Assembly: GCA_964540975.1 (NCBI GenBank)
Contig: CAZIOQ010000006.1
Span: forward strand, 1 to 32,376
Length of the DNA stretch: 32,376 nt
Direction: 5' to 3'
Source of the DNA: an uncultured Gammaproteobacteria bacterium
Lineage (GTDB): Bacteria > Patescibacteriota > Microgenomatia > UBA12405 > UBA6130
Below, piece by piece: positions 2,070-25,203 of this stretch. Positions within the stretch are counted from its first letter, which is position 1, and every line of letters begins with the position of its first letter. The position numbers and the translations under genes were made by a program. Below the pieces are notes generated by a model, which was given only the letters and a program-made list of their open reading frames with translations, did no database searches and was not told the origin of the DNA.

Positions 2070-2515
2070 ACAAAAAAATCCATTATTCCAATCGAAGAGC
2101 GAAACGAGATTACTTCATTGTTAAAAAAATAGAGGCAGGGGTGGTCTTAACTGGGAGCGAAGTCAAGGCAATCAAAACCCAAGGAATTAATCTAGATCAG
2201 GCCTTAATCCAACTAAAAGACAACGAGCTTTATCTTGTTAATGCCTTTATTCCAGCTTATAAATTTGCTACTGATAGACCGTATGATCCAAGAGCCAAAA
2301 GAAAACTGCTTTTAAAAAAAAATCAGATCAAAACCTTAATTGCTGCCAAACAAAAAAAACTGGCAATTGTTCCTCTTTCCTGCTATAATAAAAATGGTTG
2401 GATTAAAATTCTTGTTGGTGTTGGCAGAAGAAAAAAGAAGTTTGAAAAAAAACAGGCGATTATTGAACGCACTTTGAAAAGAAAATTAAAAGAAGAGGAA
2501 AACAGATGGGGATGA
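2066..2515 (+). CDS. smpB: SsrA-binding protein SmpB
   Basis: Motifs NRRAKRDY, IEAGVVLTGSEVKAIK, YDPRAKRKLLLKK, IVPLSCY and a basic C-terminal tail; adjacent to tmRNA. Confidence 0.98.
   Translation: MNKKIHYSNRRAKRDYFIVKKIEAGVVLTGSEVKAIKTQGINLDQALIQLKDNELYLVNAFIPAYKFATDRPYDPRAKRKLLLKKNQIKTLIAAKQKKLAIVPLSCYNKNGWIKILVGVGRRKKKFEKKQAIIERTLKRKLKEEENRWG
2381..2389 (+). promoter_or_regulatory. Candidate extended -10 promoter (TGcTATAAT) inside smpB, possibly driving tmRNA
   Basis: Perfect TGnTATAAT about 120 nt upstream of the mature tmRNA 5' end. It also encodes C-Y-N of SmpB, so it could be coincidental. Confidence 0.45.
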
Positions 2516-2871
2516 GGCTGGCTCGACAGGAAACATATTTTGCTGGATGGCAAGCGTCCGTTGGCTCATCGGACTGAAACAAGGCCAAAAAATAATGCCA
2601 AAGAGAATTCTTCTGGCTCTTACGCCTTGGCTTATGCTTAAGGTGTAAGCATCGGCAAAGACTTTTGTCTGGTAAGGTCTTTGCTGGTGTCAACCATACC
2701 AGACTCCAGTTGATGTTTGATTATGGCATCAACAGGAACAAATTCATAATCAAATCCAAAAAGGATTTTGGACAACTTTTACCTTTTTGTGATTATTAAA
2801 GTTGTCTAAGCTTGTAGTAGTCTGGCAAAGTTGTTTTCTGGACCCCCGTTCACCACGGGGCATCTCCACCA
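2508..2871 (+). ncRNA. ssrA: tmRNA (SsrA); tag peptide (A)AKENSSGSYALAYA*
   Basis: 5' GGGGATG (2508-2514) pairs with CATCTCC (2861-2867), including the G3-U alanine wobble, followed by encoded ACCA. T-arm is CCCCG-TTCACCA-CGGGG with an atypical T-loop. Resume codon GCC at 2597 follows AATAAT; the frame reads AKENSSGSYALAYA to TAA at 2639-2641. Confidence 0.96.
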
Positions 2872-20789: not shown

Positions 20790-20908
20790 TCCCCGGCTAT
20801 GACCTATTTTCTCCTGACACAAGATCAAGATATCGTCAGCGCTGAAGCGTTTCACTATCCTGTTCGGAATGGGAAGGAGTGGTTCCACTTCGCTCAAATA
20901 ACCGGGGA
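20790..20908 (-). rRNA. rrf: 5S rRNA
   Basis: Helix I TCCCCGG/CCGGGGA; conserved CCCATTCCGAAC, GTGAAACG and AATAGG motifs; 119 nt. Confidence 0.95.
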
Positions 20909-21167
20909 ATTTAATCCAAAAACCAGGCGGTAAAATTTAAGTTTGCTTTTTTGACCGATAGGAATGGTTTGGCTAAAACTGTTACCAGTCTTACACCTAC
21001 CACCCATCACCCAGTAGTCTCCTGGGGGTCTTAACGATTCCTCATCTTGGGGACGGCTTCCCACTTTAGATGCTTTCAGTGGTTATCCGTTAGAAACATA
21101 GCTACCCGGCAGTGCCCTTGGCAGGACAACCGGTACACCAGAGGTTTCTCCAGGTAGGTCCTCTCGT

Positions 21168-21926
21168 CAACTTTTTCTTTTGTTACCAAAAGGTTAGACT
21201 ATACCTTCATCCCGATTTAATCTCGGGAGCTTGCCTTATTATGGAAGCGCTAATTTACCCCTCATCCTAGGAGTATAACTTCCATCTCGTCCGCCAAACA
21301 AATTGGCAAGACTCAGTCGTTAAAGGGGTATCAGGCCTTTCTTAATAAAACTTTGTCTCACAAATTCATAGTTATACTTTTTCCGTACTGTCGCATAGTT
21401 TAACGAAGAAATTTTGTCCGAGAGCTGACATAGTTTTAGAAACTCCTCCGGTCTGGGATTTTTCTCCAAGATAGAAATTGCCTCGAGCATGATCTCAACT
21501 TGCTTTTTCTTAAAGAGAATAGATGGAAACAGTTCTTTTAGAACAGACTTGACCGTCTGGTGACCTTCAATTCTCAACTCAGTAATCCTGTCCTTCCTTC
21601 TCGTTAAATATCCTCTCCCCAATTTTTCTTTGATCTAGAACAGTCCTTTTTCATAACGACTATCCTGATAAAAGCAAATTGTTGTCTTTGCCCTAAAGCC
21701 AAAACTAACTCTCTTTCTTGGTTTACACTGAAGCATTACGCTTCCGTCACCATCCAAAAATCCTGCAATATATGCTTTTTCTTCTTTCTTCATTAAGATC
21801 AGCCTTAACCTTCCCTTGGTGTGGCCCTCTAAGTTACAAGGACCAACAACTTCATTTATTATAGAGGGTTTCACCAATTTGAGCAAGTGTGACCTTGGCA
21901 GTTACCCACCAAGGCAGCATTTATTT
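21168..21926 (-). mobile_element. Group I intron (IA-type, with P7.1/P7.2) inserted after U2656 in the sarcin-ricin loop; 759 nt
   Basis: Exons rejoin as CAGT|ACGAGAGGACC. The 5' exon ends in U and the intron ends in G. Helices: P1 CAGU/GCUG with U-G, P2 CCTTGGTGG-GTAA-CTGCCAAGG, P3 CTTGCT/GGCAAG, P4 TTGGTG/CACCAA, P7 A(C)GACTG/TAGTCT, P8 TCCCGA/TCGGGA, J8/7 GAAGGTATAGTC, P9 CTTTTG-GTAA-CAAAAG. Confidence 0.93.
21320..21793 (-). pseudogene. Single-motif LAGLIDADG homing endonuclease (I-CreI-like) in the intron P6 loop, broken by an in-frame TAG
   Basis: YIAGFLDGDGS motif. Track ORFs 21635-21886 and 21320-21622 are in the same frame, separated only by TAG at 21635-21637 (KGLF*IKEKLGRGY). C-terminal PEEFLKLC..SDKISSLN resembles I-CreI. 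Confidence 0.9.
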
Positions 21927-23418
21927 ACTGTACCCGGATCCCCTCAAGAATCAAGCGGTTATTGTGGATAGAGTCCGAACTGTTTTGCAACGTTCTGAAC
22001 CCAGCTAACGCGGCGCTTTAATGGGCGAACAGACCAACCCTTCCCGGCTTCTTCACCAGGAGGATGCGCCAAGCCGACATCGAGGTCGCGATCCAGGCCG
22101 TCGATATGGACTCTCGGGCCTGACCACGCTGTTATCCCCGGGGTAACTTTTATCGTTTAAGTTCCCTCCCATACCATTTGGCAAGGGAAGATCACTAGGA
22201 CCTGCTTTCGCATCTGCTCGACCCATCGGTCTCGCAGTTAAGCCGGCTTCCGCCCTTACACTACCAGCTCGATTTCCATCCGAGCCTAGCCGACCTTTGT
22301 GAGCCCGCGTTACTCTTTAGCAGGCAACTGCCCCAGTTAAACTGGCAACCAAGCACTGTTCCTGTCCGAGTTTCCATCGAACATAGGTTAGGTTCAAGAA
22401 TGATGAAGAGTGGTATCTCACTGTCGTTCTAACTTAAGGTTAGAACTCCCACCTATTCTCAACAATCATCAAACCATCCCCAATGCTAAGTTCCAGTGAA
22501 GCTCCACGGGGTCTTTTTGTCCCACAATAACTAACCGGCATATTCACCGGTATTTCAATTTCGCCGGGTAGAGGGTCGGAGACAGTTGCTCGGTCGTGAA
22601 GTCGTTCATACCGGCCAGAACTTACCTGGCAATGGACTTCGCTACCTTTGGACAGTTATGGTTACTGCCGTCGTTCACCGGGGCTTCAGGCTGCAGCACT
22701 AGCGCTTTGCCAGCACCGCTCTCCTTAACCTTCCGGCACCGGACAGACCTCAGCCCCTATATCTCCCCTTACGGGTTTGCAGGGACCGGTGTTTTTGGTA
22801 AACAGTCGCCGAGCACTCTTTTGTTGCAGCCTACCTTACCACAGGATAAGGTAGGCAAGGCATCTTGCGAACTTACACCTAGCTTGTTTGCCGAGTTCCT
22901 TGACCCTCTTTTACCCGATTGCCTTGGTCTACTCGACCTGCCCACCAGTGTTGGTTTGTGGTACGAATGCCGTTAGTTTTTGTCCACCAATTGGCAGACC
23001 GAAGCGAAGTTTTTCTCGGCATCTTAGCTTAATCTGTTCTCCTAATCCTAAGATTAGGATCACTGCTAAGCTCGCCTCCAAATCAAGATGGCGGATTTGC
23101 CAACCATCTCTGACTTGCCAAGCAGACGCTCCGATTCCACTGGAACGCCAGATCTACCAAGATGCGTCACTCCCCTTCAAAAAAACTAACGACAGCGCCG
23201 GAATATTAACCGGCCATCCTTCGGCTACTCCCCTGAAGCCAGAGGACTGACCTTAGGATCGGCTAACCCTCAGTCGACGGCCGTTGCTGAGGAAACCTTA
23301 GGCTTTCGGCATTCCGGATTCTCACCGGAATCACGCTACTCATGCCGGCATTCACACTTCCCGACGCTCCACCCCGCCTTACAGCGAAGCTTCACTGCCT
23401 CGGGAACGCTCCCTTACC

Positions 23419-23610
23419 ATCCTCGCCCCCTGGACGAGGAAATCCTAAAAGATTAAATCCTAATCGCAATTCTAAACAAATTCTAGTTTGCCAATTTCTC
23501 CAATTCAAAACATTTTTGTTTGGAGCATTTGATTTTGGCATTTTGAGATTGTTTAGGGCTTAGGATTTAGAGATTCGTGCTTAGAATTTCCTTGTCCAAG
23601 AGGCAAGAAT
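23419..23610 (-). other. Intervening sequence (~190-nt hairpin) in 23S helix 45
   Basis: TGGACGAGGAAATCCTAA ... TTAGAATTTCCTTGTCCA arms with an AT-rich interior, between the conserved GAACGCTCCC.TACC and CTTCGG segments; no ORF. Confidence 0.8.
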
Positions 23611-24195
23611 CTTCGTCTTCGGCAATCTGCTTAAGCCTCGTTAAATTTTCGGCGCATCTTGCCCTTCCCAAAACAAATTTGGGAATCGAGTGGTGAGCTG
23701 TTACGCTTTCTTTAAAGGATGGCTGCCTCTAAGCCAACCTCCCACCTGTCTTGGGCAAAACACTACCTTTCCCACTGAGCAGATTTTAGAGGCCTTAGAC
23801 AGAAGTCTGGGATGTTTCCCTCTTGTCCAACCAGCTTAGCCCGGCTGGGCTGACTGCTTTATCAAACTTACCTGGTATTTGGAGTTTGATTGGATAGAGG
23901 ATCTTGCGATCCTTTACCCATTCAGTGCTCTACCACCAGGAAGGTTAAGATAAAACGCTATACCTAAATATATTTCAGGGAGAACCAGCTATCTCCGGGT
24001 TCGATTGGCATATTACCCCTAACCCCAGGTCATCCGATGGGGTTGCAGCCCCAACCGGTACGGGCCTCCTTCTGATTTTTATCAGAATTCACCCTGCCCA
24101 AGGTTAGCTCACCCGGTTTCGGGTCTTCCGTCAGCTGCTCAGGCCTTATTCAGACCCCGCCGAAAAAATTTCGGCATCGGTTTCCCTCTGCCTCC

Positions 24196-24269
24196 CCCCG
24201 CACCTTTGTCGTCGAAGCACATCGGTCATCCAAACCCTTCCAAACGCTTCGCCCCACAAAGGTGCGGGG
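24196..24269 (-). other. Expansion hairpin in 23S helix 28
   Basis: Perfect 14-bp stem CCCCGCACCTTTGT/ACAAAGGTGCGGGG replacing the short E. coli loop. Confidence 0.7.
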
Positions 24270-24325
24270 TTAGACTCGCAACTGACGAAAACTCGCCGGC
24301 TCATTCTTCAATAGGCACGGTATCA

Positions 24326-24475
24326 CACCTCGCTTCGCTCGGTGCTCAAATTCAAAATGCAAAATTCAAAATTTAATCTGTCCGCGACGCGTCTATATAA
24401 ATTATTGCCGAGCAATACCATAATTTTGATTTTTGATATTTAATCTTTGATTTAAGCATCGAGTGAAACGAGATG
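24326..24475 (-). other. Intervening sequence (~150-nt hairpin) in 23S helix 25
   Basis: About 26-bp basal stem (CATCTCGTTTCACTCGATGCTTAAAT / ATTTGAGCACCGAGCGAAGCGAGGTG) continued by heptamer repeats. Confidence 0.8.
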
Positions 24476-24540
24476 CTCTACCTGCTTGTTAGCAAGCGGT
24501 TTTAAGTTCTATTTCACTCCCCTTCCGGGGTTCTTTTCAT

Positions 24541-24573
<33 letters not shown>

Positions 24574-25115
24574 GCAAGAGTATTTAGCCTTTCCCGATGG
24601 TCCGGGAAGATTCCCACGGGGTTACACGTGGCCCGCGGTACTCAGGAATTCCGTGCTTGTCTACTAAGATTTTGCCTACGAGGCTTTCACTCTCTTTGGC
24701 CGCCCATTCCATGGCGTTCTGCTACCCTTTCGACAAGGGTGATACGGAATCCTCCAACCTCCAGCTGTTTCCAAAGAAACGGCTAGGTTTGGGCCTAACC
24801 GCTTTCGCTCACCGCTACTTACGGCATCACTACGTTGTCAAGCAACGTTTTTCGTTTTCTCCTCCTCTGGGTACTAAGATGTTTCAGTTCCCCAGGTTCC
24901 CTCACCGCGTTTAGACGCAGTGTATCCCGATTCAACATCGGGATGGGTTTCCCCATTCGGAAACCGCCGGATCAAAGGTTGCAGACACCTTCCCGACGAG
25001 TATCGCCGTCTGCCGCGTCCTTCTTCGGCTCTTGCCGCCAAGATATCCACCACTTGCTTCAGTAAAAACAAAGCTTAAATTTACCGCCTTGTTTCTGAAT
25101 TAAACTCCCAACTTT

Positions 25116-25128
25116 TTTTCAAAGTGCA
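25116..25128 (-). promoter_or_regulatory. boxA-like antitermination site upstream of 23S
   Basis: TGCACTTTGAAAA immediately after tRNA-Ala; consensus TGCTCTTTAACA. Confidence 0.55.
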
Positions 25129-25129
25129 G

Positions 25130-25203
25130 TGGAGCTGGGCGGGGTCGAACCGCCGACCTTCCCGCTGCAAACGGGGTGCTCTTGCCAGCTGAGCTACAGC
25201 CCC
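25130..25203 (-). tRNA. tRNA-Ala(TGC); CCA not encoded
   Basis: GGGGCTGTAGCTCAGCTGGCAAGAGCACCCCGTT-TGC-AGCGGGAAGGTCGGCGGTTCGACCCCGCCCAGCTCCA; G3-U70. Confidence 0.96.

What the first reader, a model, noticed from the sequence alone, without database searches (positions are those of the whole stretch)
21168..21926. Group I intron inserted in the sarcin-ricin loop (L2656)
Seen: the universally conserved AGUACGAGAGGAC is split AGU|ACGAGAGGAC by a 759-nt element with a complete IA-type ribozyme core. Numbering is colinear from A2602 (21981) to U2656 (21927). Established: the SRL is essential for EF-Tu/EF-G activation, and the familiar bacterial/plastid LSU intron sites are elsewhere (e.g. L1917, L1931, L1943, L2593). 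I do not recall an L2656 site but cannot search. Inference: ribosome function depends on exact splicing, and intact relatives of its endonuclease would cut a near-universal rDNA target.
Basis: partly seen in the sequence, partly recalled or inferred. Interest (0 to 1): 0.8.

Follow-up and report, generated by a model that had tools for sequence, protein, structure and literature searches.

The report
Group I intron splitting sarcin-ricin loop

Summary
A 759-nt element (21926 to 21168, minus strand) lies between U2656 and A2657 of the only 23S rRNA gene. Removing it restores AGUACGAGAGGACC exactly.

It is a group I intron of IA-like architecture. It has a P1 helix with a U·G wobble at the 5' splice site, a terminal G, helices P2 to P9, a P3/P7 pseudoknot and two hairpins between P7 and P3'. 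In loop L6 it carries an I-CreI/I-MsoI-like LAGLIDADG_1 gene broken by one in-frame TAG, where relatives have Trp.

I collected 28 further complete introns at exactly this site. Across the 29, 24 of 46 tested pairs show compensatory changes. Exon base 2653 covaries with the internal guide sequence in all 29. The junction motif occurs in 20 of 401 sampled genomes of the phylum.

Rfam's Intron_gpI model is only marginal: 29.1 bits for the window against a cut-off of 50, with one of five ORF-less relatives above it. No RNA data exist for this organism, so splicing is inferred.

The novelty claim fails. Tsurumaki et al. 2024 (PMC11270868) list a frequent group-I/LAGLIDADG_1 insertion site, 23IS14, at position 2657 of CPR 23S genes. 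Their main text does not mention the sarcin-ricin loop.

The parts
20938..25073 (-). 23S rRNA gene, the only copy found in the genome, including the intron. The 3' end near 20938 is approximate.
   Evidence: Rfam LSU_rRNA_bacteria scores 2037.8 bits. There is one match in the whole genome. The 3' end comes from the alignment to E. coli. The Rfam match ends wrongly at 21786, inside the intron.
21927..21940 (-). End of the 5' exon: the helix 95 5' strand plus A2654-G2655-U2656. U2656 at 21927 is the 5' splice-site U.
21168..21926 (-). Group I intron, 759 nt, at L2656
21915..21919 (-). Internal guide sequence UGCUG. It forms P1 with exon CAGU plus the first intron A, with a U·G wobble at the splice site.
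   Evidence: for coordinates. In one search, the pair of columns 12/106 is U·G in 29/29, and the pair 9/109 covaries (C-G in 3, U-A in 26).
21893..21914 (-). P2 hairpin
   Evidence: (7 of 8 pairs show changes on both sides)
21882..21887 (-). P3 5' strand
21872..21877 (-). P4 5' strand
   Evidence: 100% paired. In the window the outer pair is U-A where the 28 others have C-G.
21825..21868 (-). P5 with its inner hairpin P5a
21816..21821 (-). P4 3' strand
21808..21815 (-). P6 5' strand (GGGAAGGU)
   Evidence: (invariant G-C pairs)
21320..21793 (-). LAGLIDADG_1 homing-endonuclease pseudogene in loop L6 (157 codons plus stop)
   Evidence: Translation. Pfam PF00961 scores 34.6 bits against a cut-off of 23.1. 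It matches I-MsoI and I-CreI at E about 1e-16 over residues 4-155.
21635..21637 (-). In-frame TAG at codon 53 of the endonuclease gene. Relatives have Trp here.
   Evidence: and the alignment. The DNA contig of run X1 shows no difference here.
21325..21329 (-). P6 3' strand (ACCCC). It overlaps the end of the ORF.
21313..21318 (-). P7 5' strand (GACUGA)
   Evidence: (4 invariant pairs)
21289..21312 (-). P7.1 hairpin
   Evidence: (-9.5 kcal/mol)
21241..21285 (-). P7.2 hairpin
   Evidence: (-14.8 kcal/mol)
21230..21235 (-). P3 3' strand
   Evidence: (after correcting a one-column misalignment of the window row)
21210..21228 (-). P8 hairpin
   Evidence: -8.5 kcal/mol. In one search this helix is loosely aligned (69% paired).
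21197..21209 (-). J8/7 (UGAAGGUA) and P7 3' strand (UAGUC), the most conserved block of the core
   Evidence: It matches the Rfam Intron_gpI consensus. It is invariant in the alignment.
21177..21193 (-). P9 hairpin with a GUAA loop
   Evidence: (100% paired, 5 of 6 pairs with changes on both sides)
21168..21168 (-). Terminal G of the intron (omega G)
21157..21167 (-). Start of the 3' exon, ACGAGAGGACC (A2657 onwards, including the GAGA tetraloop)

Best explanation
A mobile group I intron with an IA-like fold sits between U2656 and A2657 of the single 23S rRNA gene of a small (0.64 Mb), CPR/Patescibacteria-type genome. After transcription the intron folds. Its internal guide UGCUG pairs with the exon end CAGU plus the first intron A. 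An external guanosine attacks after U2656, and the freed exon then attacks after the terminal G at 21168. This ligates the exons into an intact sarcin-ricin loop. These splicing steps are inferred from the anatomy, not shown. The intron reached and keeps this site by homing. Relatives carry an intact single-domain I-CreI/I-MsoI-like LAGLIDADG enzyme in loop L6, presumed to cut the intron-less DNA that encodes the loop. In this genome that gene has one nonsense codon, so the element is probably immobile and persists only as a splicing ribozyme. It belongs to the family already catalogued as 23IS14 (position 2657) in CPR bacteria.
For: The position and the exact restoration of the loop are shown. 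There is only one 23S gene in a 93%-complete genome, so this copy must yield the functional rRNA. I found 28 further complete same-site introns of 268-861 nt. On their alignment the proposed P1-P9 structure pairs 92.9% of cells, against 81.7% in shuffles and 37-49% when partners are slid. 24 of 46 pairs change on both sides, and 0 of 500 shuffles reach the observed covariation score. Exon base 2653 covaries with the guide sequence in 29/29, and the splice-site U·G is present in 29/29. The minimum-free-energy folds of the two intron halves reproduce P1, P2, P4, P5, P7, P7.1, P7.2, P8 and P9. Two hairpins lie between P7 and P3' in 28 of 29 introns. Rfam Intron_gpI gives 53.3 bits (cut-off 50) for the 268-nt ORF-less relative. 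It gives 44.0, 42.0 and 32.9 bits for three others and 29.1 bits, E 1.3e-4, for the window. The ORF matches Pfam LAGLIDADG_1 and I-MsoI/I-CreI. Among the 29 introns, 21 have motif-bearing open frames of 130-176 aa, 5 have no ORF and 3 (the window included) are degraded, the pattern expected from a homing cycle. PMC11270868 reports group-I-like, LAGLIDADG_1-encoding inserts at position 2657 of 23S genes across CPR.
Against: There is no RNA evidence. The only run that holds the intron is a DNA run, and the RNA runs hold only conserved rRNA parts of other organisms. The window and four of the five ORF-less relatives are below Rfam's gathering score, and one of those (L138) gives no match at E <= 0.01. 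I saw no P10 pairing between the 3' exon and the guide region (read). P8 is poorly supported in the alignment (69% paired). P6 and P7 never vary, so they neither support nor refute the model. 21 of the 29 introns were found with a pattern that already required the P7 strand and a G before the 3' exon, so those two features are true by construction in them.
Confidence: 0.88

Rival explanations
1. The insert is an intervening sequence that is cut out (for example by RNase III) without ligation, leaving a fragmented 23S rRNA, as at the classical helix-25 and helix-45 sites.
For: Fragmenting intervening sequences are common in bacterial 23S genes and are proposed for CPR by PMC11270868. This same gene has a 137-nt hairpin insert at a classical place. 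No spliced RNA has been seen.
Against: The insert does not fold as one long hairpin. It folds as a covarying group I core with a guide sequence that tracks the exon base. A break between U2656 and A2657 would cut the 12-nt universally conserved loop itself. Sarcin cleavage five bonds away inactivates ribosomes (PMC2896532 abstract and passages).
Confidence: 0.03
2. The locus is a dead or chimeric rRNA gene (an assembly or binning artefact, or a pseudogene), and the functional 23S lies elsewhere in the unassembled 7% of the genome.
For: The genome is a 63-contig draft, 93% complete. rRNA regions are often mis-assembled. One carrier contig (G304:C47) is under 2 kb and could be mis-binned.
Against: A DNA contig of run X1 covers 20940-22124, across both intron-exon junctions, with no difference. 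That run may be the source sample, so it is not independent. The 23S is full length with an adjacent 5S and tRNA-Ala on a 32-kb contig. The same arrangement is found in 28 other loci, some on contigs of several hundred kb. The exons keep every conserved base of the loop and a compensated helix 95 stem.
Confidence: 0.03
3. It is a group I intron, but it is no longer self-sufficient. Splicing needs a protein helper (a maturase-type activity of the endonuclease, or a host factor). With the endonuclease gene broken, splicing here is impaired or host-dependent.
For: P1 is only 5 bp, no P10 was seen, and the Rfam score is low. Some LAGLIDADG proteins double as maturases (title of reference 39 in the reference list of PMC11270868, seen; otherwise recalled).
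Against: Five relatives have no ORF at all yet keep the same core in what are presumably their only 23S genes, so the protein is dispensable. The core helices of the window's copy are all intact.
Confidence: 0.06

Closest known systems
CPR 23S rRNA insertion site 23IS14 (position 2657), Tsurumaki et al. 2024, J Bacteriol, PMC11270868
   Same: It shares the same gene, the same place within one base, group-I-like flanks, a single-domain LAGLIDADG_1 ORF, a spread over many CPR lineages, and the coexistence of ORF-less and degenerate forms (and the passages). This is the family the window's intron belongs to.
   Different: The paper located inserts by alignment to E. coli and says the boundaries are not exact. 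Its main text never mentions the sarcin-ricin loop (0 hits) and describes the group I sites as clustering around the peptidyl transferase centre in domain V. It gives no structure or splice junction for this site in the text I could read. The enzyme it tested, I-ShaI, is from 23IS7, not this site.
Chlamydomonas chloroplast LSU intron (L2593) with I-CreI, and the I-MsoI intron
   Same: Each is a group I intron in a highly conserved stretch of the 3' part of LSU rRNA that encodes a homodimer-type single-domain LAGLIDADG enzyme. The window's protein matches I-MsoI and I-CreI at E about 1e-16 over nearly its full length. That the I-CreI ORF also sits in L6, and that the intron is of subgroup IA3, is recalled and not tested.
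   Different: The insertion site differs (2593 against 2656) and so does the DNA target. The hosts are organelles, not bacteria. The window's gene is broken.
Bacterial 23S group I introns at L1917, L1931 and L1951 (Coxiella, Simkania, Thermotoga, cyanobacteria)
   Same: These are self-splicing group I introns, often with LAGLIDADG genes, in conserved 23S sites of bacteria (site names from PMC11270868 section 5, and the search listing of PMC1995217 and PMC3984707; the organisms are recalled).
   Different: All lie in domains IV and V. None is in helix 95.
RNase III-excised intervening sequences of bacterial 23S rRNA (helices 25 and 45)
   Same: They are extra sequence inside a 23S gene that is absent from the mature rRNA. 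This gene has such candidates too.
   Different: Those sit in variable hairpin tips, fold as a single long hairpin, and leave the rRNA in pieces. This element sits in an invariant loop and has a ribozyme core.

Membership tests
Group I intron (Rfam RF00028) | P1 helix between the exon end and an internal guide sequence, with a U·G wobble at the 5' splice site | tested here: met
   Exon CAGU plus the first intron A pairs with UGCUG at 21919-21915. The U·G wobble is present in 29/29. The neighbouring exon base covaries with the guide (C-G in 3, U-A in 26).
Group I intron (Rfam RF00028) | Intron ends in G (omega G) | tested here: met
   G at 21168. All 8 introns found by BLAST, which did not require this, end in G. 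In the 21 found by pattern it is true by construction.
Group I intron (Rfam RF00028) | Conserved core P3-P9 with the P3/P7 pseudoknot, supported by covariation | tested here: met
   P2, P3, P4, P5 and P9 have 7, 3, 2, 4 and 5 pairs with changes on both sides. P6 and P7 are invariant. P8 is weak (69% paired). For the whole structure, 0 of 500 shuffles reach the observed covariation score.
Group I intron (Rfam RF00028) | Covariance-model score at or above Rfam's gathering score (an operational test, not a biological definition) | tested here: inconclusive
   The window scores 29.1 bits against 50, E 1.3e-4, and only the 3' part matches; a 474-nt ORF sits in L6. The ORF-less relatives score 53.3, 44.0, 42.0 and 32.9 bits, and one gives no match at E <= 0.01.
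Group I intron (Rfam RF00028) | Guanosine-dependent self-splicing with exon ligation | not testable with these tools
   No RNA run holds this organism.
Subgroup IA (criterion recalled from Michel and Westhof 1990) | Two extra hairpins (P7.1 and P7.2) between the P7 5' strand and the P3 3' strand | tested here: met
   The window has hairpins at 21312-21289 and 21285-21241. Two hairpins are predicted in 28 of 29 family members. This rests on folding only; the region aligns too poorly for covariation. I did not test which IA subtype it is.
CPR 23IS14 insertion family (PMC11270868) | Insert at about position 2657 of the 23S gene | tested here: met
   The break is U2656|A2657. The paper's positions are alignment estimates.
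CPR 23IS14 insertion family (PMC11270868) | Group-I-like insert encoding a LAGLIDADG_1 protein | tested here: met
CPR 23IS14 insertion family (PMC11270868) | Host is a CPR/Patescibacteria bacterium | tested here: inconclusive
   The genome is 0.64 Mb. Most sampled genomes of its phylum are 0.4-1.5 Mb, and a few reach about 2 Mb. Of the 14 intron carriers whose titles I saw, 12 are named as CPR lineages (Paceibacterota, Parcubacteria, Magasanikbacteria, Daviesbacteria, Saccharibacteria) and 2 only as bacterium. I did not place the window's own genome by a marker gene.
LAGLIDADG_1 homing endonuclease, I-CreI type (PF00961) | Pfam domain above cut-off with the acidic LAGLIDADG motif present | tested here: met
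   34.6 bits against 23.1. The motif reads IAGFLDGDGS.
LAGLIDADG_1 homing endonuclease, I-CreI type (PF00961) | Uninterrupted reading frame | tested here: not met
   There is a TAG at codon 53 (21637-21635), where relatives have Trp. It is therefore a pseudogene of this family, not a working member.
LAGLIDADG_1 homing endonuclease, I-CreI type (PF00961) | Cleaves the intron-less target DNA | not testable with these tools
   No enzyme from this site has been assayed. I-ShaI in PMC11270868 is from the 1931 site.

The most novel reading that the evidence does not exclude
Intact endonucleases of this intron family recognise the DNA encoding the sarcin-ricin loop, one of the longest universally conserved rRNA stretches. 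They could therefore home into the rDNA of essentially any bacterium. If so, the element's apparent confinement to CPR lineages would reflect host tolerance (single-copy rDNA, many rRNA introns) and not target availability. The family would also be the only known group I lineage in domain VI that makes a ribosome's ability to activate GTPases depend on RNA splicing. This last point is not discussed in the main text of the paper that catalogued the site.
Probability: 0.3. Interest if true: 0.45.

Novelty: already known. Interest (0 to 1): 0.25.

Why it matters
The loop that switches on EF-Tu and EF-G cannot form until this intron is removed, so every working large subunit in this organism depends on accurate splicing. 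That illustrates how far rRNA introns have invaded essential sites in CPR bacteria. The site itself was published in 2024, so the finding is not a discovery. An intact enzyme of this family would be an ordinary but useful candidate for a meganuclease with a very widely conserved target.

Tried and rejected
Rfam at gathering threshold on the window found no intron. At the E-value threshold it gave only a 29.1-bit partial match, so I turned to comparative evidence.

The first MAFFT alignment to E. coli with the intron left in was scrambled downstream of the loop. I repeated it with the intron removed inside the script.

The wide pattern scan of genome contigs was too loose. 97 of them were chance matches and 22 were real. 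It therefore cannot show absence outside CPR, and no second scan was allowed.

My first idea of a P6 pairing GUUAA/UUAAC was dropped once the ORF-less relatives showed the GGG/CCC plus GGU/ACC pairing instead.

The window row of alignment A1 is shifted by one column in columns 912-928, which makes its P3 and P8 look unpaired. Shifting it in a script restores them. Row L100 is misaligned at its 5' end and produces the single non-pair in P1.

Sequencing runs: only one DNA run (X1, possibly the source sample) holds the stretch. The RNA runs hold 6-8% of the words. When laid, they cover only conserved exon parts and carry other organisms' intact loops in their loose ends. The three joints listed have sides of 20-21 letters and do not match the splice sites. 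I draw nothing from this about splicing, expression or habitat.

Literature: a full-text search for 'L2656' gave 34 papers, of which 20 were listed and none concerned introns. 'L2656' plus 'intron' gave 3 papers, all unrelated. 'rRNA, intron, Patescibacteria, sarcin-ricin' gave 0. 'group I intron, sarcin-ricin loop, 23S' gave 9 papers, with 8 listed; by title and abstract start none appears to report an intron in the loop, and I opened none of them. Nawrocki and Eddy 2018 (PMC6125680, passages only) list no 2656 or 2657 site. Brown et al. 2015 (Nature) is not held, so I do not know what it says about 23S sites. Supplements of PMC11270868 were closed; they may hold the counts and secondary-structure positions for 23IS14.

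I did not run the large protein searches, structure prediction or complex prediction, because nothing in the verdict depended on them. I did not count how many of the 401 genomes have an assembled intact loop, so 20 of 401 is a lower bound on carriers among genomes with a 23S gene.

Full report
**What is there.** The window is contig C6 of a 638-kb, 63-contig genome estimated 93% complete. That genome holds a single match to the bacterial LSU rRNA model. The gene lies on the minus strand from 25073 to about 20938. It is preceded by tRNA-Ala(UGC) and followed by 5S rRNA. On that strand the sequence reads ...GGGUACAGU (ending at 21927), then 759 nt (21926 to 21168), then ACGAGAGGACC (starting at 21167). 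With those 759 nt removed, the gene aligns to an E. coli rrl gene without a gap across AGUACGAGAGGACC. Rfam's rRNA match ends wrongly at 21786 because the model cannot bridge the insert.

**Numbering.** PMC2896532 (passages) gives the E. coli numbers. The universally conserved stretch is 2654-2665, its first uridine is U2656, ricin depurinates A2660 and sarcin cuts G2661-A2662. The insert therefore lies between U2656 and A2657, which is L2656 in the usual naming. The helix 95 stem beside the loop is kept with compensating changes (GGGUA pairs with UACCU).

**What it is.** The insert has the anatomy of a group I intron.
- The exon end CAGU plus the first intron A pairs with UGCUG (21919-21915), giving P1 with the U·G wobble at the splice site.
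- P2 follows, then P3, P4, P5/P5a and P6.
- P6 carries a 474-nt reading frame in its loop.
- After P6 come a P7 strand, two hairpins (P7.1 and P7.2), the returning P3 strand, P8, the highly conserved J8/7-P7 block UGAAGGUAUAGUC, and P9 with a GUAA loop.
- The intron ends in a G at 21168 (coordinates).
- Minimum-free-energy folds of the two halves reproduce P1, P2, P4, P5, P7, P7.1, P7.2, P8 and P9.

Rfam's Intron_gpI model sees only the 3' part of the window's copy: 29.1 bits, E 1.3e-4, against a cut-off of 50.

**Comparative evidence.**
- A BLAST search with the intron in 401 genomes of the same phylum (the window's own included) matched 23 of them. In 7 of these besides the window's own genome, the loop is split at exactly the same bond by a homologous insert. 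The other matches were to introns or endonuclease genes elsewhere in 23S genes whose loop is intact.
- A pattern scan of the species-level genome collection added 22 real cases among 119 stretches, the rest being chance matches.
- I extracted 29 complete introns of 268-861 nt. One further case (L032) was cut by the end of its locus and dropped. All 29 were aligned.
- On that alignment the proposed nine helices pair 92.9% of cells. Shuffles give 81.7%, and sliding the partners by 1-3 columns gives 37-49%.
- 24 of 46 pairs change on both sides, and 0 of 500 shuffles reach the observed covariation score.
- By helix: P2, P3, P4, P5 and P9 covary; P6 and P7 never vary; P8 is loosely aligned (69% paired).
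- Exon base 2653 is C in three introns and U in 26. The facing base of the guide sequence is G and A respectively, in all 29.
- The window row is shifted by one column over part of the alignment. Correcting that restores its P3 and P8.
- Two hairpins between P7 and P3' are predicted in 28 of 29. As I recall it, this is the hallmark of subgroup IA.

**Rfam on the family.** The model is marginal. The five ORF-less members give 53.3, 44.0, 42.0 and 32.9 bits and, for one, no match at E <= 0.01. 21 of the 29 introns were found with a pattern that required the P7 strand and a terminal G, so those two features are not independent evidence in them.

**The reading frame.** The ORF (21793 to 21320) matches Pfam LAGLIDADG_1 at 34.6 bits against a cut-off of 23.1. 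It matches the homodimeric enzymes I-MsoI and I-CreI at E about 1e-16 over residues 4-155. It keeps the motif IAGFLDGDGS but has an in-frame TAG at codon 53 (21637-21635). Relatives have Trp there. The DNA contig of the one run that holds the stretch shows no difference. Otherwise the frame is intact, so this is a recent inactivation. Among the 29 introns, 21 have motif-bearing open frames of 130-176 aa, five have no ORF and three (the window's included) are degraded. This mix is what the gain-decay-loss cycle of homing-endonuclease genes predicts.

**How it most likely works.** Shown: the position, the fold supported by covariation, the family, and the broken endonuclease gene. Inferred: the precursor rRNA splices by the standard two-step guanosine-initiated pathway. 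Only spliced molecules can form the loop that activates EF-Tu and EF-G. Because this is the only 23S gene found, the organism depends on that splicing. Also inferred: intact relatives of the enzyme cut the intron-less DNA and drive homing, and this copy can no longer move by itself. No RNA data bear on this. RNA runs contain only conserved rRNA parts from other organisms.

**Distribution.** The junction motif (P7 strand, P9, terminal G, 3' exon) is present in 20 of 401 sampled genomes of the phylum, against one hit of the reversed control pattern. It is present in 1 of 24 sampled genomes of the window's class besides the window itself. I saw titles for 14 carriers. Twelve name Paceibacterota, the Parcubacteria group, Magasanikbacteria, Daviesbacteria or Saccharibacteria, and two say only bacterium. 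Titles of the other eight were not displayed.

**Comparison with what is known.** Tsurumaki et al. 2024 surveyed 348 CPR 23S genes (PMC11270868). I read the abstract, section 5 part 1, section 6, section 7 part 1 and further passages. They defined 14 frequent insertion sites. They state that LAGLIDADG_1 proteins are predominantly encoded in inserts at positions 1917, 1931, 1952, 2593, 2604 and 2657 (23IS6-8 and 12-14).

Their positions are alignment estimates. Their main text does not contain the word sarcin and describes the group I sites as clustering around the peptidyl transferase centre in domain V. The enzyme they assayed comes from the 1931 site. I could not open their supplements. Searches for 'L2656' and for the loop together with introns found nothing else. 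The archaeal survey PMC6125680 lists no such site.

**Verdict.** This is a real, well-supported group I intron in the sarcin-ricin loop. It belongs to a family published in 2024, carries a freshly broken I-CreI-like endonuclease gene, and has no direct evidence of splicing. Interest is modest. What remains open is the target range of the intact enzymes and a direct demonstration of splicing.

Noticed in passing
window 24333-24469 (-): A 137-nt insertion relative to E. coli lies near position 541 of the 23S. It folds as one long hairpin (-43 kcal/mol, z -4.4). This is the classical helix-25 place of RNase III-excised intervening sequences (that identification is recalled), and PMC11270868 mentions such sites as 23IS2 and 23IS4.
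   Followed up: partly
window 23419-23610 (-): Two further insertions of 92 and 79 nt lie near E. coli positions 1157 and 1178. The first does not fold better than shuffles; the second folds weakly (z -2.0). Smaller inserts of 15-65 nt are listed.
   Followed up: partly
window 20791-25203 (-): The gene order is tRNA-Ala(UGC), 23S, 5S. There is no 16S rRNA in the 7 kb upstream or anywhere else in the window, so the 16S gene seems to be unlinked.
   Followed up: no
window 2508-2871 (+): A tmRNA gene (Rfam 111 bits).
   Followed up: no
L011, L016, L024 (genomes G304, G272, G032): These three carriers have a second group-I-like intron 52 nt upstream of the loop intron, after GAGACAGU (about U2604, the paper's 23IS13). 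In L011 it scores 42.5 bits with Rfam. As I aligned the exons, the base before the 3' exon is C, A or G in the three genomes, not the expected constant G. I did not resolve its true boundaries.
   Followed up: partly
L052, L056, L063, L071, L093, L098, L108: Seven assemblies titled Candidatus Saccharibacteria carry the loop intron. Yet PMC11270868 reports that 64 of 66 Saccharibacteria rRNA inserts were short and had no intron or endonuclease. Either the labels are loose or the paper's sample missed them.
   Followed up: no
G304:C47 compared with G032:C1 (L011, L024): The two genomes are placed in different classes, but their introns share an identical 45-nt P7-P9-3' end and nearly identical flanking exons. 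G304's copy is on a contig of under 2 kb, so this is either a transfer or a mis-binned contig.
   Followed up: no
window 21982-22132: A freshwater metatranscriptome run (X3) holds a 151-nt contig identical to this part of the 5' exon. It ends about 55 nt before the loop, so it says nothing about splicing. It does hint that a close relative is present and transcribed elsewhere.
   Followed up: no
L004-L008 and most other carriers, start of the endonuclease frame: In most relatives the open frame already runs through the P4/P6 junction of the ribozyme (the product starts ...TVGS), with a possible GTG start inside the core. The window instead uses an ATG further into L6. Overlap of the start with the core could couple translation to folding. 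This was not examined.
   Followed up: no
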